The notes beneath the pieces are model-generated. The model was not told the DNA's origin, did not search any database, and saw only the letters and a list, made by a program, of their open reading frames with translations. Shown one piece after another: positions 21,286-30,106 of a stretch of DNA of 64,000 nucleotides (positions within the stretch are counted from its first letter, which is position 1; every line of letters begins with the position of its first letter). Position numbers and translations under genes: made by a program. Origin of the DNA: a bacterium (GTDB lineage: Bacteria; Patescibacteriota; Dojkabacteria; SC72). Location of the stretch: contig JALHDC010000001.1 of NCBI GenBank assembly GCA_022840695.1, positions 84,456-148,455 of the forward strand, written 5' to 3'.

Positions 21286-22881
21286 ATGAAGCTAAGCTTT
21301 AAGAAAGATTTACACATAGCTACAATTAGATCAGAGGAGATTTGGAATAAATTCAAAGTACATACACTATTACAAAACTGTGAATCTAAACAGCCATCGA
21401 TAAATGCATACCTTGGAGCCAGATACAGTAGATCATCAGATTCCATCGTAGATATTGCTTCTGAAATACTCAAAACTAATACAGATGCTGCTGAAAGATT
21501 AGAAAAAATATTCTCTGGATATGGTCATAAATCTGTTGGAGATATGGCAGACCTATTCCTCTGCTTAGAAGATATTCCTATGTTCACTGCTATGAAAATC
21601 TTCTACATCAACTCCGTAATTTCTGGACAGGAAAGATCTACAAGATATCAAAATTTCCAAAATCCAGAATTTGTAAAAATACCAAATGAAGTATGTACAG
21701 ATAGGGAGATAACTAAGGGATATGAAAGAATAATATTAAAACAGATGCAAGATTACAGGGAACTTCTTAAACCAACAAAAGATGCATTAGAGAAACATTT
21801 TAGAATTAATGATGAAAGTACACAGGAAGTATCAGCTCTAAAGGCTAGAGCATTTGATGTAGCAAGATATTTGCTTCCCTTTGGTCTAAATACAAGTTCT
21901 GCATATCTAATGTCTGCAAGGAATTGGTCTGATATGATCAGCTATCTTTGTTCTAGTGATTCTGTAGTTGAGAATTCTCTCTCTACACTTCTTTTGAATC
22001 TTTTAGGAGAATCTAACCTAGAAGCAAGAGGATATATTAGGGAAGCAGATGGCCTAATTAGACATACAGATGCAAATGGTTGTAGAAAGAGTTCTACAAA
22101 AAACATATTGGAATATATGAAAAAGAGTATATCTACAGAACAGTCTAGAGATATTCCCGAATGTGAGGAAGAAGCAATTAAAGTATCATACTCTCCAGAC
22201 TGTATGGAAGCTCTCATTTCTCACTATGAAGCATTGATTAATCCTTTAGGTTCTAAAGAAGAATTTGAGTTTTCTGAAACAGATCAAGAAGAGATAGGGG
22301 AGATAATATTTGAAAATCATGATCATCATAATACATTAGGTAATATCGGGCAATCAGGAGCTGTAAAGATAGAAGGTTTTGCAACTCTAGGTACATTGAA
22401 GGATATGAACAGGCACAGAAGCTTAGAAAGATTTATGCCAATATTTCATGACGAAATTGATATGGATCAGGAATTAGATAGAAGAAATGATCAATGTTTC
22501 TATCTCTGTAACTATTTAAACATTCCATCTCTTTCAAGATTAAGAAAGAGCTATGAAGAAAAACTCACAGATACATATGAGAGAATTAGAGAATGGAGAA
22601 AGATGGCAAAAGAGGTTCTCTCTAAAGAAGTTTGTGATGAGTATACAAAATATCTTCTTCCACATGCTCATGCTACAAGATATATCTTTTACGGATCATT
22701 TGATGATCTGCAATATATTTCAAATTTAAGAACTAGAAACGGAGGACATATAGCATATCGGAAATTGACATATGAATGGTTAAGAAATCTCTCCTACCTT
22801 GATCCAATATGGAGACCATTATTGAGAAAAATCATAGAGCCTCGTATTGATGACAAGCATCAATTTGTAGATAGAAGTTAA
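21286..22881 (+). CDS. Putative flavin-dependent thymidylate synthase ThyX-like protein, tandem-domain form (531 aa)
   Basis: N-half GYGHKSVGDMADLF…SGQERSTRYQ resembles ThyX GHESxxEH…SxxExSxRY but lacks RHR. C-half carries NRHRSLERF. Sits within the folD-glyA-…-dcd context. Confidence 0.45.
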   Translation: MKLSFKKDLHIATIRSEEIWNKFKVHTLLQNCESKQPSINAYLGARYSRSSDSIVDIASEILKTNTDAAERLEKIFSGYGHKSVGDMADLFLCLEDIPMFTAMKIFYINSVISGQERSTRYQNFQNPEFVKIPNEVCTDREITKGYERIILKQMQDYRELLKPTKDALEKHFRINDESTQEVSALKARAFDVARYLLPFGLNTSSAYLMSARNWSDMISYLCSSDSVVENSLSTLLLNLLGESNLEARGYIREADGLIRHTDANGCRKSSTKNILEYMKKSISTEQSRDIPECEEEAIKVSYSPDCMEALISHYEALINPLGSKEEFEFSETDQEEIGEIIFENHDHHNTLGNIGQSGAVKIEGFATLGTLKDMNRHRSLERFMPIFHDEIDMDQELDRRNDQCFYLCNYLNIPSLSRLRKSYEEKLTDTYERIREWRKMAKEVLSKEVCDEYTKYLLPHAHATRYIFYGSFDDLQYISNLRTRNGGHIAYRKLTYEWLRNLSYLDPIWRPLLRKIIEPRIDDKHQFVDRS

Positions 22882-23469: not shown

Positions 23470-24636
23470 TTACATTGTAGGTGGTACAGGAGGCAAATCC
23501 TCATCTGTTGTTGTGTCTTGTACAGGTTGCTGTACAGGAGGAGTCTCTACGACAGGAGGTTGTGTAGCCATATTCTGTATTTCACTGTTTATTGTATTTT
23601 GTAAATCTGCAGCAGATGGTGTAGGTTGAGTTTCTGGCATTACTGTTTCAGGAGACGAAGAAGGCATTGGTTCTGCTAATGTTGGAGCACTTTGTGGTAC
23701 TTCCTGTTGTATTGATGGTGTCTCTTGTTGCATCAACTCCTGAAGATCTTTCTCCTCATTACCTGAACTCATTGGAGGTGTTGTTGGCATGACAGGAGGA
23801 GTAGGGATAGTTTCTACAGGTGTGGACTCCACTACTGGTGGTACAGAAGCAGGTTGTGCTTGCTCTACAGCTGGCGTTTCTGGGATCACACTCTCCTCAG
23901 TTTTATTCACCATATCTTTCAATGTAGGTTCCTGTTGGGGAGTACTGACTGGTGTTTCCTCTTGAACAGGTTCACTCATAGGTGTTTCAACTGTCTCATC
24001 AACAGAGGACTCTTTTTTCTTACTTAATAAAATTCCAATTATACTAATCAGTAATACAACGGATCCTGCTATCAAAATGTATGGTAAATACTCTGTTAGA
24101 TTATCTATACTAAAACCAGTACTCTGAGTTGTAGTTGTAACACTTTCCTGTGTACTTATAAGAGTAGGATCTTCTACTGTAGTAGTATCCTCTTCCTCTG
24201 TTACTGTCTCTTCAACTTCTCCTATATTTACAACTTCACCTAATTCCAATTCCCCTATATCCAAATCAGTATCATCCAAAACGGTAAAGGTATATGTACT
24301 TTCATCCGAAGTAAATAATATGTTTGCTAATACTCCACTTAATTCAGTAGCAGTATCCAATTCACAAGTTATAGTTACAGTATCTGTACTGTCAACATAG
24401 TCCAAAGAAGAACAAGTTATTGTTCCTGAATTAACCTCTGATATTGTTACTCCTTCTGAAAACTGTATAGGTAATACAATTTTCTCCAAAGTATCAGTCC
24501 CTGTATTTACAGTTATAGAAACAGACTGAATATCGGTAGTAGAGTTATCCTTTAAAGTTACATCTACAGCAGCAAATGCTTTTAAAGGGAAAAGGATTAA
24601 AGCAAAAACAAACAGAAAAGAATATATTTTTTTCAT
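23470..24636 (-). CDS. Surface protein: signal peptide, ectodomain, single TM, long Pro/Thr/Glu/Gln-rich cytoplasmic tail
   Basis: MKKIYSFLFVFALILFPLKAFAA signal. TM YILIAGSVVLLISIIGILL preceded by QSTG. The C-terminal ~190 aa are low complexity. Confidence 0.6.
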   Translation of the reverse strand: MKKIYSFLFVFALILFPLKAFAAVDVTLKDNSTTDIQSVSITVNTGTDTLEKIVLPIQFSEGVTISEVNSGTITCSSLDYVDSTDTVTITCELDTATELSGVLANILFTSDESTYTFTVLDDTDLDIGELELGEVVNIGEVEETVTEEEDTTTVEDPTLISTQESVTTTTQSTGFSIDNLTEYLPYILIAGSVVLLISIIGILLSKKKESSVDETVETPMSEPVQEETPVSTPQQEPTLKDMVNKTEESVIPETPAVEQAQPASVPPVVESTPVETIPTPPVMPTTPPMSSGNEEKDLQELMQQETPSIQQEVPQSAPTLAEPMPSSSPETVMPETQPTPSAADLQNTINSEIQNMATQPPVVETPPVQQPVQDTTTDEDLPPVPPTM

Positions 24637-24763: not shown

Positions 24764-25972
24764 ATGGATTATTCAAGTAATTACAATATGAATAGTAATA
24801 CTCCTGTATCTTCTTCGATGGATGAGAATATGGGAGAAGTTTTGGAACTTGAGAATAAACTAAACTCCTCTAAGGTTCCAGAAACTCTAAAAGAGGAAGC
24901 CATGAGAAGTGTGTTAAGGCTTAAGAGAATGTTTAGAATGGGCGGATATAGTGCTGAGTTTGAAACTGTGAGTAAGTATGTTGATTGGGTAACAAGAATT
25001 CCTTGGGGAATTAATTCTAAAGATAGTTTTGATCTCCAGAATGCGAAGCAATTAATGGATCAAACACACTACGGTATGGAGACAATTAAGGATCTAATCC
25101 TTGACTACTTAGCTACAATGCAACTTCAAACTAGGGGAGGAATTGAGAGTAGGGCACCTATTCCATCTCAAATTTACGGAACTAATCCCCCTATTCAGAA
25201 GATTGCTAATAATGAAATGGCTGTATTGAAAGGTTCTTCTGCGAATGCTCCTGTATTTCTTTTTATTGGTCTTCAAGGTGTTGGTAAAACCTCTATAGCT
25301 AAATCAATAGCAACATCTATGGGTAGAAAGTTTGCTAGAGTTTCTCTAGGAGCAATAGGTGATGTCCGAACACTTAGGGGTACTCCAAGGTATTCAATAG
25401 ATGCAGAACCAGGACAGATAGTTAAGTCTCTTGTAAGGTGTGGAACTATGAATCCTGTAATACTTTTAGATGAGATTGAAAAATCAAGTGGAAATGCTGG
25501 ATTATTAAATGATGTAATGGCTGCACTACTTGAGATATTAGATCCTGAGCAGAATTCTAGCTTCATAGATCACTATATTGATTATCCAATAGATCTTTCT
25601 GGAGTATTTTTCATTTGTACGGCTAATAATCTTGGTGGTCTTTCTGCTGCATTACTTGATCGTGTTGAGGTAATTAGATTTACAAGTTATTCCGATGAAG
25701 AGAAAGAGGTGATAGGTAAACAGTATATACTTCCAAAAGTATTAAATAATCTTAATCTCTCATCAGATCATATTAAGATAGAGGAAGAAGTATGGCCTTT
25801 AATAATTCGTCCAGTTGGATTTGATGCAGGTATCAGACAATTGGAAAGAAATATAACAACGATGGTTAGGAGTGCTGCTAGGATGATCATAGAGGAAAAA
25901 CAGTTACCAATAATCATAAATAAGGAAAATCTCAGCCAGTATGTTTTGGCAGATCAGGGACCTTTAAGTTAA
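24764..25972 (+). CDS. Lon-like AAA+ ATPase lacking N-terminal LAN domain and C-terminal S16 protease domain
   Basis: Lon coiled-coil/linker (LKEEAMRSVLRLKRMF…SKYVDWVTRIPWG). Lon-type AAA+ core (LFIGLQGVGKTSIAKSIATSMGRKFARVSLG…ILLDEIEKS…LEILDPEQNSSFIDHY). Protein ends about 60 aa after sensor 2. Confidence 0.75.
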   Translation: MDYSSNYNMNSNTPVSSSMDENMGEVLELENKLNSSKVPETLKEEAMRSVLRLKRMFRMGGYSAEFETVSKYVDWVTRIPWGINSKDSFDLQNAKQLMDQTHYGMETIKDLILDYLATMQLQTRGGIESRAPIPSQIYGTNPPIQKIANNEMAVLKGSSANAPVFLFIGLQGVGKTSIAKSIATSMGRKFARVSLGAIGDVRTLRGTPRYSIDAEPGQIVKSLVRCGTMNPVILLDEIEKSSGNAGLLNDVMAALLEILDPEQNSSFIDHYIDYPIDLSGVFFICTANNLGGLSAALLDRVEVIRFTSYSDEEKEVIGKQYILPKVLNNLNLSSDHIKIEEEVWPLIIRPVGFDAGIRQLERNITTMVRSAARMIIEEKQLPIIINKENLSQYVLADQGPLS

Positions 25973-26226
25973 TATCCTTTGAATGGGTTTGCTAATTTTA
26001 AAGCTGATACAGCTCTGTGTATTTGTGGATTTTTTATACCTTTTGCTATGTCTGCTTTATATGTACTTTTCTCTTCTGCCTTACTCAATTGATCCAGATC
26101 AGAGAGTAATTTATCTTGTGCTATCTTCTTAGTATCTACTGCCTGTGTAACCAAGTAGTTAGACAGATTTATTTGATTTTGACTACTGTCCTGTTCTTCC
26201 ATATTCATCCTCCGGATAACTTTCAA
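25969..26226 (-). CDS. Small hypothetical protein, last gene of the VirB4 operon (true start may be an internal Met)
   Basis: 85-aa helical ORF overlapping the VirB4 3' end by 44 nt. No recognisable domain. Confidence 0.3.
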   Translation of the reverse strand: MKVIRRMNMEEQDSSQNQINLSNYLVTQAVDTKKIAQDKLLSDLDQLSKAEEKSTYKADIAKGIKNPQIHRAVSALKLANPFKGY

Positions 26227-28639
26227 CTAAACCTTGGGGAGTTAAATGTTTTCTTCCCCTTTGTATATCCTCCCTTGACTTTACAGTTTGTCCTGAAATT
26301 GTACTTTCTTTTAATTCATCTAAGAATGTTTTTTGACTTTTATATTTCTCAGGATTTAATTCCATCTCTTGCTGTCTTAATCTCTCTTCTATTTCTTTCT
26401 GATACTGTTTTCTTTCTTCTTCCAACATTCCTTTATTTCCCTCTGTCCTACGAATAGCTTCTTGTATAATTTGTTCTTCTCTTTTGAGATTTCCTCCTCC
26501 CTTTAGTGGCTTCTGTTCTGCTGGAGGATCAAATATTTCTGATAGCTCTTCAATGGTTCTAGTCTCTGTTTGTCCCTCTCTCTTCTTAAGTTTTTCTAAA
26601 TCCCTTGGGTCTGAAGTGATCAATTCGTGTTCAGATACACTAGAAAGAACTTGTATACCAACATGGTTTGATCCAGCGAAGAATAGTCCTTGTCCTTTGT
26701 CACAGTTAAGGAGGAAATTCTTTTCCCCATCAGAAAGATTGAATACCTCCTGAAGTTTCTCTACAGCGGTAGGGCTTTGCATCATTAACATCTGCATAGA
26801 TGAGTTTGAAATAATGGCTTTTCCCATATCTGTATTTAAGAAATCGGCTACATCCTGGGTTATTGTTGAAAGTCCTAAATAATATTTTCTCGCTCTCTTA
26901 GCTATTGAATACATGAATCTAGCAGAATCTTCCGATTGCATCATGTACCAGGCTTCATCTACCACTAACAATCTTCTTTTTCTCTCCTTCCTTATCTTTG
27001 TCCAAATGAAATCAAGCATTAAGTACATAGCTAAAGGTTTTAGCTCTTCCTGTAGGTCTCTAATACTAAATACAGTGAATGGATTATTAATCTCAAAGTT
27101 ACTAGCTTCATTGAAAACTCCTGCACCACTTCCAATTATGTATTTTTCTAATCTCTTGGCTAAACCATGTGCTTCTGGTTCTGCCATACCTTTCAACACT
27201 TTGTACAGATCTTCTAGCATAGGGGGTGTTTTAGTTTGTGTATTTGGATCAAAGGTGATACCTTTTTCTCTGTATGTAAGTATTAAAGCTCTATCTAATA
27301 TGGAACCTTCAATATTATCTATTTCTCCAAATAGTACTCGGAAGAATCCTTGAAGAGAAAGCATTTTCATCCTTAATTCATCATCTCCTTCCTCTGTAAC
27401 TCCTGAAAGCTCAAAAGGATTCATTTTGTTTCCTTTATCCTGAGAGAATGAAATATATGCACCATTTACAGCTCTACAAAGATCTTCATATTCTCTTTCT
27501 GGATCAATTATTATTATTTCTGTGCCAAGCATCAAACTTCTAACAGCTTCTAGTTTTACAAAATAGCTCTTACCAGCACCAGATTTAGCAAATACTACTG
27601 TATTTGCATTTTCTAATTCGAATCTATCAAAGATAACTAAACTTTTGTTATGGAGGTTTAATCCATACATTATTCCATGGTCCATTGTTAACTCAGAAGT
27701 AACGAAAGGAAAGGTGGTTGCCAACGATGTAGTATCCATGTTTCTAGTTATATACAGGTTATCGAGACCTAGAGGTTGGGTACTGATGAATCCTTGTTCT
27801 TGTTGTAGTGTAGCTGGTTTCGCAGTCACATTAATAGCTGCAAGTGTAGATGTTACATTTCTTCCAATCTTTTCTAATAGCTCTTTATCTTTCGCATACA
27901 AGGTTATGTACATAGCAAAATGGAAAAACTTTTCGGTACCCTCTGCAATAGAATCTTGTAACTGTTGAGCATCTGATAGGGCAACCTTTAGTGAAGGATC
28001 TACTACCTTCCTATCTTCCATTTGAGCATACAAAGAAGCTTCCATTTCTCCTATCTTCTTTTTCAATTTCTCAAGTATAGTTTTAGAATCAACGGGATAG
28101 TAGAAGGTACTTATCCTCAAAGAGTGTTCGAAGTTGATAATAGGAGATAACCAATTTGGTCCTACAAACCTAGGATATCCGCTTACAAAAAGAGTTTTGA
28201 AATAATACTCTCCCATCTCTAAATGATTAAAATCCACCTCCAAATCTATTGGGGCTACTATATCCTGTATGGACATGTCCGTAGGGGATACTTTTACCTT
28301 CTCCAATACTTCTGCAGATATTGATTCTCCAACATTGTTATCTACTCCTGAATCAGTACTTTTCTCTTTCTCTCCTTTTCCAAACACTCCTGCAACATTA
28401 TCTAAGAATGTAAATAGAAAATTCTTCTTTTTCTTCTTCTCTACATCTTCTTTTGGTATTGGATCATTATATCTATTAAAATTCATTTTTTCAGAATTAT
28501 CTGTTGGTTCAACTTTAATTTCCTCCTTGAATTCATTATATTTTTCTCCAGGAGTCTTAAGTTTCTCTGCCTGTTCCTGTAACATCTGTGCTGTTTTATT
28601 CTCAAACGATCTATTGTAGTTATCATTAATATTTTCCAT
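26183..28639 (-). CDS. VirB4/TrbE/CagE-family type IV secretion ATPase (core + C-terminal part), with charged N- and C-terminal extensions
   Basis: IDLEVDFNHLEMGEYYFKTLFVSGYPRFV, Walker A AKSGAGKSYF, IIIDPEREY, Walker B LLVVDEAWYMM, STITQDVADF. Confidence 0.85.
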   Translation of the reverse strand: MENINDNYNRSFENKTAQMLQEQAEKLKTPGEKYNEFKEEIKVEPTDNSEKMNFNRYNDPIPKEDVEKKKKKNFLFTFLDNVAGVFGKGEKEKSTDSGVDNNVGESISAEVLEKVKVSPTDMSIQDIVAPIDLEVDFNHLEMGEYYFKTLFVSGYPRFVGPNWLSPIINFEHSLRISTFYYPVDSKTILEKLKKKIGEMEASLYAQMEDRKVVDPSLKVALSDAQQLQDSIAEGTEKFFHFAMYITLYAKDKELLEKIGRNVTSTLAAINVTAKPATLQQEQGFISTQPLGLDNLYITRNMDTTSLATTFPFVTSELTMDHGIMYGLNLHNKSLVIFDRFELENANTVVFAKSGAGKSYFVKLEAVRSLMLGTEIIIIDPEREYEDLCRAVNGAYISFSQDKGNKMNPFELSGVTEEGDDELRMKMLSLQGFFRVLFGEIDNIEGSILDRALILTYREKGITFDPNTQTKTPPMLEDLYKVLKGMAEPEAHGLAKRLEKYIIGSGAGVFNEASNFEINNPFTVFSIRDLQEELKPLAMYLMLDFIWTKIRKERKRRLLVVDEAWYMMQSEDSARFMYSIAKRARKYYLGLSTITQDVADFLNTDMGKAIISNSSMQMLMMQSPTAVEKLQEVFNLSDGEKNFLLNCDKGQGLFFAGSNHVGIQVLSSVSEHELITSDPRDLEKLKKREGQTETRTIEELSEIFDPPAEQKPLKGGGNLKREEQIIQEAIRRTEGNKGMLEEERKQYQKEIEERLRQQEMELNPEKYKSQKTFLDELKESTISGQTVKSREDIQRGRKHLTPQGLVESYPEDEYGRTGQ

Positions 28640-29274
28640 TACTCTTCCTCAGGGTTATATATAGTGTAGAATTCAGACAATAATTCCTTTGTAGTTAATT
28701 GGTGTCCAAAAAGACCCATTCTTCCTAACTGCTTAAGAAGATGATCTCTCTTTGGAAAAAGAAATATCTTAGCTTTCTCTATTAATTGATCTGTTTGCAT
28801 CTGTTTGTATTTCTCCTGTTCCTCCTTATTCTTTTTACTATCAAAGATACTACCTCCAGGTAATGGTACACCAGGGCTATACGGTATTACAAGAAAGAAA
28901 CTTTTATCTAATACATCATTTTCCACAATTAATTTTTGTACAAATTCGGTATATATATCTAACTGCTTCTTTAGTCCCTCACTCATCTGCTTATTCTTTT
29001 GTCCTTTTAGGTAGTCTATGTAGTTAGTGATATCGATTCTTCTAGTTCTGATTAATATCTGAATTCTAAAGTTCAAGGAATTTAGCAATCCTGCAAAAGC
29101 ATATATCTTATTATCTTGTTCATACTCAGCCAAGAGATCAAAGTTTATGGAAGATGTTTGAATAATCATTGCTACACTACCATTCTTAGTTATTAAGAGA
29201 TCATCTTTTATATCCCTTACCCCCAAATGTTCTTGTGTTGATGCTGTAGCTCTCGCTCTTGCGTTCTTTTCCAC
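28639..29274 (-). CDS. VirB4 N-terminal-domain-like protein, translationally coupled to downstream VirB4 ORF
   Basis: LLITKNGSVAMIIQTSSINFDLLAEYEQDNKIYAFAGLLNSLNFRIQILIRTRR follows the VirB4/TrbE N-terminal pattern. Its stop overlaps the next ATG (TAATG). Confidence 0.5.
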   Translation of the reverse strand: MEKNARARATASTQEHLGVRDIKDDLLITKNGSVAMIIQTSSINFDLLAEYEQDNKIYAFAGLLNSLNFRIQILIRTRRIDITNYIDYLKGQKNKQMSEGLKKQLDIYTEFVQKLIVENDVLDKSFFLVIPYSPGVPLPGGSIFDSKKNKEEQEKYKQMQTDQLIEKAKIFLFPKRDHLLKQLGRMGLFGHQLTTKELLSEFYTIYNPEEE

Positions 29275-29275
29275 A

Positions 29276-30106
29276 TTAAATATTATTAATTTTAATAGGT
29301 GACTTATTCTCTCTGTTACTTAACTCTAGTTGTACCTTTGGGAATTTATACACAGGATGTTGAAATTCTAACATATATGTTCCAATATCCCACATTTTGT
29401 TTGTAAGGAAGTACCCATTGGTACCAGTTCGATTAGCATACAGAACCTTTTGCTGAGAATCTTTTAAATATACAATTACATTAGGTATTGGTTTAAAATC
29501 CTTTGTACATAACCAAGCATTAATGTTTCCTGGGAGCCTATCTAAACTTTTAATATTGAATTGGTAGTTAGCAATATTACTATCTGTAATTACTAAAAGG
29601 TTTGGATCAATAGGGGGGGTAGTTAGGTTTTCTTCTACATTTAATTCTTCATCAAGCATATCTATGTCATCTTCTACCTCTGCATCCTCTTTTTTTATAT
29701 CTAATCCAACTCCTATGATCTTTTTATTTTTATCTTTAACATCCTTTGGTATTATCTGTCCATCTTCAGAAGGTTTAACTTCAGGCTTACTCCTTTCTTC
29801 TCTCATATCTTTATTCATCCATACTCTTTGTGTTGGATTACTAATAGCGGAGATGTAATTTTTTATGAATACATCTGCATCTTGATCATTAACTGGTACT
29901 AATCCTAAAAATATTCCTGCCCCCGAGGAAATGATGAATACAGGTATTCCTAAAATACCTGGAATTATATTACTCGCAGTTAAATATATCATTACTCCTC
30001 CAAAGCCTATACCGATGGCTAAATAGGCGAATTCTTTTAGAGTGAATTTAGTAAAGAGTTTAAACTCAACATCTAATATATTTTGTGGAATAGCATGTTG
30101 TCTCAT
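29276..30106 (-). CDS. Membrane protein with N-terminal two-helix hairpin (VirB3-like by topology/position) and C-terminal beta-rich ectodomain
   Basis: TM1 FAYLAIGIGFGGVMIYL and TM2 ILGIPVFIISSGAGIFLGLV. C-terminal carboxypeptidase-regulatory-like motif RTGTNGYFLT…GTYMLEF. Lies 1 nt upstream of the VirB4-N ORF. Confidence 0.4.
   Translation of the reverse strand: MRQHAIPQNILDVEFKLFTKFTLKEFAYLAIGIGFGGVMIYLTASNIIPGILGIPVFIISSGAGIFLGLVPVNDQDADVFIKNYISAISNPTQRVWMNKDMREERSKPEVKPSEDGQIIPKDVKDKNKKIIGVGLDIKKEDAEVEDDIDMLDEELNVEENLTTPPIDPNLLVITDSNIANYQFNIKSLDRLPGNINAWLCTKDFKPIPNVIVYLKDSQQKVLYANRTGTNGYFLTNKMWDIGTYMLEFQHPVYKFPKVQLELSNRENKSPIKINNI

What the first reader, a model, noticed from the sequence alone, without database searches (positions are those of the whole stretch)
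26183..29274. VirB4 type-IV-secretion ATPase apparently split into two translationally coupled ORFs
The 211-aa ORF (29274..28639, minus) carries the spacing pattern of the VirB4/TrbE N-terminal region (…LLITKNGSVAMIIQTSSINFDLLAEYEQDNKIYAFAGLLNSLNFRIQILIRTRR…). Its stop overlaps the ATG of the 818-aa ORF as TAATG. The 818-aa ORF holds the rest of VirB4: IDLEVDF…GEYYFKTLFVSGYPRFV, Walker A AKSGAGKS, DPEREY, Walker B LLVVDEAW. It also has a Lys/Glu-rich ~110-aa N-terminal linker and a ~130-aa charged C-terminal tail that are not part of canonical VirB4. A natural N-domain/ATPase split of VirB4 with a charged linker is unusual and would affect how the inner-membrane complex assembles.
Basis: partly seen in the sequence, partly recalled or inferred. 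Interest (0 to 1): 0.7.

Follow-up and report, generated by a model that had tools for sequence, protein, structure and literature searches.

The report
Known two-gene VirB4: TrsD plus ATPase
The "split VirB4" is real, but it is the normal, published layout of the type IV secretion ATPase in Patescibacteria (a small TrsD protein next to VirB4), so this is an ordinary member of a known system.

Summary
A 211-aa ORF (28639..29274, minus) ends in TAATG, where the 818-aa VirB4 ORF (26183..28639) starts. A PrgI/VirB3-like gene lies 1 nt upstream.

The 211-aa protein is the missing N-terminal piece of VirB4:
- It gives collinear weak hits to VirB4 profiles.
- hhalign gives 96% probability to TrsD of plasmid pSK41.
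- A 787-aa Patescibacteria protein carries both parts fused.

It is not a sequencing error. The junction is identical in six independent assemblies. All 78 related species loci that include the region upstream of virB4 keep two ORFs, with varied junctions (-1, -4, -8, +1, +2).

It is not unusual either. Quinonero-Coronel et al. 2025 report TrsD, remotely homologous to the VirB4 N-terminus, as the most abundant T4SS component in Patescibacteria, mostly next to virB4. Staphylococcal pGO1/pSK41 plasmids have the same TrsC-TrsD-TrsE order.

The cut lies inside the VirB4 N-terminal domain, not at the N-domain/ATPase boundary. The charged N-extension and C-tail of the ATPase are conserved only in the Dojkabacteria clade. 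That detail is the only mildly new point.

Verdict: already known, low interest.

The parts
29276..30106 (-). PrgI/VirB3-like membrane protein (276 aa). It has two predicted TM helices in the PrgI domain (aa 6-95) plus a C-terminal beta-sandwich-like region. It is the first gene of the operon.
   Evidence: Pfam PF12666 PrgI scores 32.1 bits against a cut-off of 27. A homologue sits directly upstream of TrsD in almost every related locus that has enough upstream DNA. Its stop lies 1 nt before the ORF211 GTG.
28639..29274 (-). TrsD-like protein (211 aa), the detached N-terminal subdomain of VirB4.
28637..28641 (-). TAATG stop/start overlap between trsD and virB4.
   Evidence: The related loci use -1, -4 or -8 overlaps, or gaps of 1-2 nt.
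28277..28639 (-). N-terminal extension of the VirB4 chain (aa 1-121). It is Lys/Glu-rich and contains a conserved KKKKK-NFLFTFLDNVAGVF motif (aa 68-86).
   Evidence: It lies outside all VirB4 profiles. It is conserved only in the Dojkabacteria clade. AF2 pLDDT is mostly below 50, with short predicted helices at 15-41 and 75-85.
26570..28276 (-). VirB4 core (aa 122-690): the second half of the N-terminal domain plus the P-loop ATPase domain.
   Evidence: NCBIfam CD1110-family VirB4 scores 395 bits against a cut-off of 325. PDB 4ag5 VirB4 C-terminal domain, E 1.4e-50. 56% identical to the fused protein P0249, aa 213-782. 27% identical to pSK41 TraE/TrsE.
27566..27589 (-). Walker A motif AKSGAGKS (aa 351-358).
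   Evidence: Translation. G354, G356, K357 and S358 are invariant in alignments A4 and A5.
26948..26971 (-). Walker B motif LLVVDEAW (aa 557-564).
   Evidence: Translation. D561, E562, A563 and W564 are conserved.
26186..26569 (-). C-terminal charged tail of VirB4 (aa 691-818), with clade-conserved motifs (IFDPPAxQ, ER..YQKEIEERL, HLTPQG).
   Evidence: AF2 predicts a long helix at 718-761 with low to moderate confidence.
25969..26226 (-). Small conserved ORF (77-85 aa) that overlaps the 3' end of virB4. It is probably the fourth gene of the operon. Function unknown.
   Evidence: Called as a gene in other assemblies. Conserved in about 35 related loci, with an invariant C-terminus ...ALKLxNPFKGY. 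No family hit.

Best explanation
This is the core of the chromosomal type IV secretion system of a Patescibacteria (Dojkabacteria/WS6-like) genome. The operon is prgI/virB3-like, trsD-like, virB4 and a small ORF.

The VirB4 ATPase is encoded as two polypeptides:
- TrsD (211 aa) is the first subdomain of the VirB4 N-terminal domain.
- The 818-aa chain carries the rest of that domain and the P-loop motor.

Shown: the homology, the complementarity of the two pieces, the conservation of the split, and the tight gene junctions.

Inferred:
- The two chains are made in near-equal amounts by coupled translation (a stop/start overlap with an internal Shine-Dalgarno sequence).
- They reassemble into a VirB4-like N-terminal domain.
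- That module docks on the PrgI/VirB3 membrane protein and holds the ATPase ring at the membrane, as the VirB4 N-terminal domain does in the R388 system.
- The ATPase powers assembly or transport by a T4SS. In the one Patescibacterium tested (S. epibionticum), this system is essential for epibiotic growth rather than for conjugation.
For: Each piece is a different part of VirB4:
- ORF818 passes the curated cut-off of the CD1110 VirB4 family but matches only profile positions 180-734.
- ORF211 matches positions 19-163 of TIGR00929 and 103-233 of VirB4_plasma.
- The concatenation aligns to TIGR00929 as one stretch (19-729). The score rises from 123.9 to 132.8 bits, and to 143.4 bits without the linker and tail.

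A natural fusion exists:
- P0249 (787 aa, Patescibacteria MAG, seen in 5 assemblies) matches CD1110 positions 3-735 in one stretch.
- It is 41% identical to ORF211 over aa 7-199 and 56% identical to ORF818 aa 128-698.

Structure:
- The ORF211 model has pLDDT 83.
- The 14 best Foldseek hits are all TrwK chains, followed by a sharp drop.

Conservation:
- All 120 best ORF211 homologues are 208-218 aa.
- The junction is identical in 6 assemblies.
- 78 species loci all have two ORFs. Across the 85 loci scored, the gap between the two genes is between -14 and +7 nt in 76.

Same arrangement in pSK41: TrsC-like, TrsD, then the VirB4-like TraE.

Literature:
- PMC12102498 covers TrsD in Patescibacteria, its association with virB4, and its essentiality in S. 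epibionticum.
- PMC12857230 covers contacts of the VirB4 N-terminal domain with VirB3 and VirB8, and the essential T4SS of S. epibionticum.
Against: - No direct evidence here that TrsD binds the VirB4 chain or PrgI. A two-chain structure prediction could not be run.
- The TrsD NCBIfam score (34.6 bits) is far below the curated cut-off (200).
- No VirB6, VirB8, pilin, coupling protein or relaxase gene was found in the 64-kb window. The rest of the machine and its substrate in this organism are therefore unknown.
- The AF2 model of ORF818 is of low confidence (pLDDT 56).
Confidence: 0.85

Rival explanations
1. TrsD is a diverged copy of the VirB4 N-terminal subdomain that no longer completes the ATPase. 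Instead it acts on its own as an assembly factor, regulator or adaptor, for example by recruiting partners or substrates.
For: In many other Patescibacteria, TrsD carries disordered tails of 100-500 aa that end in conserved short motifs ([LM]PP[IL][AP]EI, or PFVVEELxD[DE]Y). This looks like a tether or adaptor. [quoted passage not shown]
Against: ORF818 lacks exactly the segment that TrsD supplies. A fused form exists with only a short linker. The TrsD in this window has no tail. The tight coupling of the two genes is conserved.
Confidence: 0.11
2. Programmed -1 ribosomal frameshifting near the end of ORF211 produces a single fused VirB4 polypeptide.
For: The ORF818 frame is -1 relative to ORF211, and the two ORFs overlap.
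Against: In the ORF818 frame a TGA stop lies 9 nt upstream of the ATG. Only 9 nt are therefore available for a shift, and they contain no slippery heptamer. Related loci have junctions in different relative frames, and some have gaps (-1, -4, -8, +1, +2). A Shine-Dalgarno-like GAGGA precedes the ATG.
Confidence: 0.02
3. The split is a sequencing or assembly indel, or a recent pseudogenising frameshift in a conventional virB4.
For: None beyond the adjacency of the two ORFs.
Against: The 211-aa product and the junction are identical in six assemblies from different samples. All 120 closest homologues are about 211 aa. All 78 species-level loci are split, with several junction types. About 120 aa of clade-conserved sequence separate the ORF818 start from the VirB4 core.
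Confidence: 0.01

Closest known systems
Patescibacteria-clade T4SS core (VirB3/PrgI, TrsD, VirB4), as surveyed by Quinonero-Coronel et al. 2025 (PMC12102498) and shown to be essential in Southlakia epibionticum (Wang et al. 2023, as cited there and in PMC12857230).
   Same: Same gene order, with TrsD immediately upstream of virB4 and PrgI upstream of that. The location is chromosomal among housekeeping genes, with no relaxase nearby. The VirB4 is of the monoderm (MPF-FATA-like, CD1110) type.
   Different: The main difference is in detail. In this Dojkabacteria clade, TrsD is minimal (211 aa, no tail). The VirB4 chain carries an N-extension of about 120 aa and a C-tail of about 130 aa with clade-specific motifs. 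A conserved ORF of about 80 aa follows virB4.
TrsC-TrsD-TrsE (TraC-TraD-TraE) of staphylococcal conjugative plasmids pGO1/pSK41.
   Same: Same three-gene order and the same cut point. pSK41 TrsD (227 aa) aligns end to end with the ORF211 family (hhalign 96.3%). TraE (672 aa) aligns from its aa 48 with ORF818 aa 138 (27% identity, E 4e-49).
   Different: pSK41 is a conjugative plasmid with a relaxase, a coupling protein, VirB6-like and VirB1-like genes and a pilin-like gene in the same cluster. Sequence identity of TrsD is only about 20%. TraE has no long charged extensions.
Single-chain VirB4 ATPases (TrwK of R388; CD1110-family VirB4 of Firmicutes; Thermoanaerobacter VirB4, PDB 4ag5).
   Same: Same ATPase domain and motifs. 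The ORF211 model matches the TrwK chain. Together the two ORFs cover the whole profile.
   Different: One polypeptide in those systems, two here.
VirB3-VirB4 fusion proteins (for example on Campylobacter plasmids; cited in PMC12102498).
   Same: Another rearrangement of the same VirB3/VirB4 N-terminal module.
   Different: The direction is opposite: fusion there, fission here. PMC12102498 found no VirB3-VirB4 fusion in Patescibacteria.

Membership tests
VirB4 ATPase (NCBIfam NF045971, CD1110 family) | Whole-protein score above the curated cut-off (325 bits). | tested here: met
   ORF818 alone scores 395.4 bits over profile positions 180-734. With ORF211 joined and the linker removed, the score is 403.8 bits over positions 106-734.
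VirB4 ATPase (NCBIfam NF045971, CD1110 family) | Walker A and Walker B motifs of the P-loop C-terminal domain. | tested here: met
   AKSGAGKS at aa 351-358 and LLVVDEAW at aa 557-564. PDB 4ag5 VirB4 C-terminal domain, E 1.4e-50.
VirB4 ATPase (NCBIfam NF045971, CD1110 family) | A complete N-terminal domain on the same polypeptide. | tested here: not met
   ORF818 lacks profile positions 1 to about 180. These are supplied by the separate ORF211.
VirB4 ATPase (NCBIfam NF045971, CD1110 family) | An adjacent virB3-like gene. | tested here: met
   PrgI domain, 32.1 bits against a cut-off of 27, in the gene two positions upstream.
TrsD/TraD family (NCBIfam NF041427) | Score above the curated cut-off (200 bits). 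| tested here: not met
   34.6 bits, E 1.6e-8. ORF211 is a remote relative, not a member of the staphylococcal subfamily as NCBI defines it.
TrsD/TraD family (NCBIfam NF041427) | Full-length homology to a bona fide TrsD, and a position between the VirB3-like and VirB4-like genes. | tested here: met
   hhalign of A1 against pSK41 TrsD gives probability 96.3% over 181 columns. The gene order is the same in pSK41.
TraC-like domain (Pfam PF26593) | A hit to the Pfam model. | tested here: inconclusive
   The precomputed hit is listed for ORF211 and nearly all homologues, flagged 'weak'. The local Pfam scan returned no PF26593 hit for ORF211.
Patescibacteria-clade T4SS (PMC12102498) | The VirB4 falls within the monophyletic Patescibacteria clade. 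| not tested
   No phylogeny was run. The closest homologues (71-100% identity) are all from Dojkabacteria/WS6 and other Patescibacteria MAGs.
Patescibacteria-clade T4SS (PMC12102498) | A TrsD homologue and a PrgI/VirB3 homologue are associated with virB4. | tested here: met
   The same order is seen in the related loci.
Patescibacteria-clade T4SS (PMC12102498) | Chromosomal location with no relaxase in the cluster. | tested here: met
   The neighbours are lepA, recF, a Lon-like AAA protein, dcd, thyX and glyA. Further out are alaS, pnp, infB, nusA, dnaK, dnaJ, groEL, murJ and mltG. No relaxase or coupling-protein hit was found among the ORFs scanned. Not every small ORF was scanned.
Patescibacteria-clade T4SS (PMC12102498) | Other T4SS parts (VirB6, VirB8, VirB2-like pilins) are present in the genome. 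| not testable with these tools
   Only 64 kb of the genome is available, and none were found in it.

The most novel reading that the evidence does not exclude
Splitting the VirB4 N-terminal domain is exploited in Patescibacteria to create free chain ends that carry flexible, lineage-specific tethers with short docking motifs.

- In most classes, the tether is a long disordered tail on TrsD ending in [LM]PP[IL][AP]EI or PFVVEELxD[DE]Y.
- In this Dojkabacteria clade, the tethers are instead a charged N-extension (with a KKKKK-LFxFLD amphipathic helix) and a helical C-tail (ending HLTPQG) on the ATPase chain. A conserved 80-aa partner ORF follows virB4.

These appendages would recruit partners or substrates, or regulate assembly, for the essential non-conjugative function of the system. 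As far as I could find, they have not been described.
Probability: 0.15. Interest if true: 0.45.

Novelty: already known. Interest (0 to 1): 0.15.

Why it matters
The T4SS of Patescibacteria matters because it is essential for the epibiotic life of the one species tested, and its substrate is unknown. The two-chain VirB4 (TrsD plus ATPase) is already a recorded feature of that system, so this locus adds another example and no new principle.

The modest added value lies in three points:
- direct evidence (a natural fusion protein and structural matches to TrwK) that TrsD is the detached first subdomain of VirB4;
- the exact position of the cut;
- the observation that the disordered appendages move between TrsD and the ATPase chain in different classes.

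Tried and rejected
- Sequence searches of ORF211 and of its family profile against the PDB found nothing relevant. Only structure comparison linked it to TrwK.
- The search for related loci with the TrsD alignment failed because no stretch was conserved enough. The VirB4 alignment was used instead.
- An alignment led by the fused protein, meant to model both parts together, was misaligned by MAFFT. TrsD sequences were placed at positions 143-659, so it was dropped.
A job on concatenated chains was therefore not attempted, and no heterodimer model exists.
- The AF2 model of ORF818 came out at low confidence (pLDDT 56). It was not used for fold search.
- The afdb50 library was unavailable.
- Promoter and terminator scans of the operon gave nothing above shuffled expectation.
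- GC skew shows no clear origin in the window.
- Guglielmini et al. 2014 (PMC4027160) does not mention TrsD in its main text. The statement on homology between TrsD and the VirB4 N-terminus is therefore cited from PMC12102498.
- The frameshift-error and programmed-frameshift readings were considered and rejected (see the rival explanations).
Full report
**Observation.** On the minus strand, three genes are packed end to end.
- A 276-aa ORF (29276..30106).
- A 211-aa ORF (28639..29274, GTG start), which begins 1 nt after the stop of the first ORF.
- An 818-aa ORF (26183..28639), whose ATG shares its A with the TAA stop of the 211-aa ORF.
- A GAGGA run lies 9-13 nt upstream of that ATG.
- The window has 33% G+C, and its other genes are housekeeping genes.

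**What the proteins are.** ORF818 passes the curated cut-off of the NCBIfam CD1110 family of VirB4-like ATPases (395 bits against 325).
- Only aa 117-662 match, and they cover profile positions 180-734.
- Its ATPase half matches the solved VirB4 C-terminal domain 4ag5 (E 1.4e-50).
- It still carries the second half of the VirB4 N-terminal domain (CagE_TrbE_VirB positions 123-196 of 204 at aa 219-289).

ORF211 has no hit above threshold in the local Pfam copy, but other evidence identifies it.
- It hits NCBIfam TrsD/TraD (E 1.6e-8).
- It hits the N-terminal parts of two VirB4 models, collinear with ORF818: VirB4_plasma positions 103-233 and TIGR00929 positions 19-163.
- Public precomputed annotation gives it Pfam PF26593 'TraC-like'.

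The upstream 276-aa ORF has a PrgI (VirB3-like) domain above the Pfam cut-off.

**Is ORF211 really the missing VirB4 piece?** Four independent lines say yes.
1. *Natural fusion.* P0249 is a 787-aa protein from a Patescibacteria MAG (MEK7091100.1), seen in five assemblies.
   - It matches the CD1110 profile from position 3 to 735 in one stretch.
   - Its aa 7-199 are 41% identical to ORF211.
   - Its aa 213-782 are 56% identical to ORF818 aa 128-698.
2. *Conceptual fusion.* Joining ORF211 and ORF818 gives a single alignment to TIGR00929 (positions 19-729). The score rises from 123.9 to 132.8 bits, and to 143.4 bits when the linker and tail are removed.
3. *Structure.* An AlphaFold2 model of ORF211 (38-sequence alignment, pLDDT 83) was compared with the PDB.
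   - The 14 best Foldseek hits are all TrwK chains (probability 1.00), followed by a sharp drop.
   - The tools do not report which TrwK residues are aligned, so placement in the N-terminal subdomain rests on the sequence evidence.
4. *Homology to TrsD.* The ORF211 family profile aligns end to end with TrsD of S. aureus plasmid pSK41 (hhalign probability 96.3%, 181 columns).
   - ORF818 aligns with the adjacent pSK41 VirB4-like TraE from its aa 48 onward.
   - The cut point is therefore the same in both systems.

**Is the split real?** Yes.
- The same 211-aa product, followed directly by the 818-aa gene (or its start, where the contig ends), occurs in six assemblies from different samples.
- All 120 closest homologues of ORF211 are 208-218 aa. 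All 120 closest homologues of ORF818 are 708-876 aa, and none is about 1000 aa.
- I fetched 80 loci from different GTDB species and analysed them with HMM searches on stop-to-stop ORFs.
  - Seventy-eight contain the upstream region.
  - In all 78, TrsD and the VirB4 core lie in separate ORFs.
  - Counting the window and its six same-species contigs, 85 loci were scored. In 76 of them the two genes are between -14 and +7 nt apart.
  - The most frequent junction types are -1 (24), -4 (12), -8 (10), +2 (9) and +1 (8).
- Different relative frames exclude a single sequencing error. They also argue against programmed frameshifting. In this window, frameshifting is further disfavoured by a TGA 9 nt upstream of the ATG in the ORF818 frame and by the lack of a slippery site.
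- A PrgI homologue precedes TrsD in nearly every locus with enough upstream DNA.

**What is known.** The arrangement is already published.
- Quinonero-Coronel et al. 2025 (PMC12102498) searched 3,035 Patescibacteria genomes.
  - They found VirB4 in 2,417 of them, forming a clade nested in the monoderm MPF-FATA class.
  - They also report that the TrsD homologue of Southlakia epibionticum is listed as essential.
- The same paper and a 2025 review (PMC12857230) describe the system as chromosomal, usually without a relaxase, and essential for epibiotic growth.
- The review also summarises that VirB4 N-terminal domains embed in the membrane and contact VirB3 and VirB8 in the R388 structure.
- In pSK41 the annotated order is a 135-aa TrsC-like protein, trsD (227 aa) and a 672-aa DUF87/VirB4-like protein.

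The two-gene VirB4 is therefore known both in Patescibacteria and in pGO1/pSK41-type plasmids.

**Mechanism.**
- *Shown:* the two chains are complementary parts of one VirB4, are always encoded together, and are joined by start/stop overlaps or gaps of a few bases.
- *Inferred:* coupled translation gives matched amounts of the two chains.
- *Inferred:* TrsD re-forms the N-terminal domain together with aa ~125-290 of ORF818 and mediates docking to PrgI/VirB3 at the membrane.
- *Inferred:* the ATPase ring then drives assembly or transport.

I could not model the two chains together.

**The extensions.** The N-extension (aa 1-121) and the C-tail (aa 691-818) lie outside every VirB4 profile. They are rich in charged residues (37% and 40%).
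- Both are conserved in length, and partly in sequence, in the Dojkabacteria/WS6 clade only.
- The N-extension contains a conserved basic run followed by an amphipathic LFxFLD motif (aa 68-86; predicted helix 75-85).
- The C-tail contains the motifs IFDPPAxQ, ER..YQKELEERL and HLTPQG, with a predicted long helix at 718-761. The model is of low confidence (pLDDT 56).
- In other classes the VirB4 chain starts about 30 aa before the core with MxLFxFLxxKKK and has a short tail.
- In those classes TrsD often carries a Q/P/S/T-rich tail of 100-500 aa that ends in [LM]PP[IL][AP]EI or PFVVEELxD[DE]Y.
- The disordered appendages therefore sit on different chains in different lineages. I did not find this described, but I did not search exhaustively, and its meaning is unknown.

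**Surroundings.** No VirB6, VirB8, pilin, coupling protein or relaxase was detected in the window.
- Close neighbours are recF, lepA, a Lon-like AAA protein, dcd, thyX and glyA.
- Further out are alaS, pnp, infB, nusA, dnaJ, dnaK, groEL, murJ and mltG.
- A small ORF (25969..26226, 77-85 aa) overlaps the end of virB4. It is conserved in about 35 loci with the C-terminus ALKLxNPFKGY, so it is probably part of the operon.

**Verdict.** It is wrong about rarity and about the position of the cut. This is an ordinary member of a described system: already known, low interest.

Noticed in passing
window 25969..26226 (-): A small ORF (85 aa from TTG; 77 or 79 aa from the ATGs) overlaps the 3' end of virB4. 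It is conserved in about 35 Dojkabacteria-clade loci, with an almost invariant C-terminus ...A(L/M)xAL(K/R)LxNPF(K/R)G(Y/V). It has no family hit. It is probably a fourth, undescribed gene of the operon.
   Followed up: partly
window 23470..24636 (-): A 388-aa protein with a signal peptide, one TM segment and a long P/T/Q/E-rich tail ending (E/D)(E/D)LPPVPPTM. The terminal motif is conserved in relatives. It resembles the [LM]PP[IL][AP]EI motif that ends the disordered tails of TrsD homologues in other Patescibacteria.
   Followed up: partly
proteins P0122-P0270 (TrsD homologues of other Patescibacteria): About three quarters of the 150 best representative TrsD homologues are 260-715 aa. The extra length is a low-complexity Q/P/S/T/N-rich C-terminal tail. 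About 40 of these tails end in [LM]PP[IL][AP]EI(K/T/E) and about a dozen end in PFVVEELxD(D/E)Y. These look like conserved short linear motifs with an unknown partner.
   Followed up: partly
window 28382..28438 (-) (ORF818 aa 68-86); loci L047-L086: The VirB4 chains of other Patescibacteria classes begin with MxLFxFLxxKKK. In this clade a similar basic-plus-amphipathic motif (KKKKKNFLFTFLDNVAGVF) lies inside a longer N-extension. This suggests about 70 aa were added in front of the ancestral N-terminus created by the split.
   Followed up: partly
window 29276..30106 (-): The PrgI/VirB3-like protein is 276 aa, against about 100-120 aa for canonical VirB3. It has a C-terminal region with weak beta-sandwich hits (CarboxypepD_reg, SdrD_B, EMC7). 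The stop-to-stop ORFs holding its homologues in other classes reach about 790 aa.
   Followed up: no
protein P0249 (MEK7091100.1) and P0272-P0275: One Patescibacteria lineage encodes TrsD and VirB4 as a single 787-aa protein, with a linker of only about 14 aa and no charged extension. It is seen in five assemblies. Whether this is the ancestral state or a re-fusion was not determined.
   Followed up: partly
window 21286..22881 (+): The ThyX (Thy1) homologue is 531 aa, about twice the usual length. It was not examined further.
   Followed up: no
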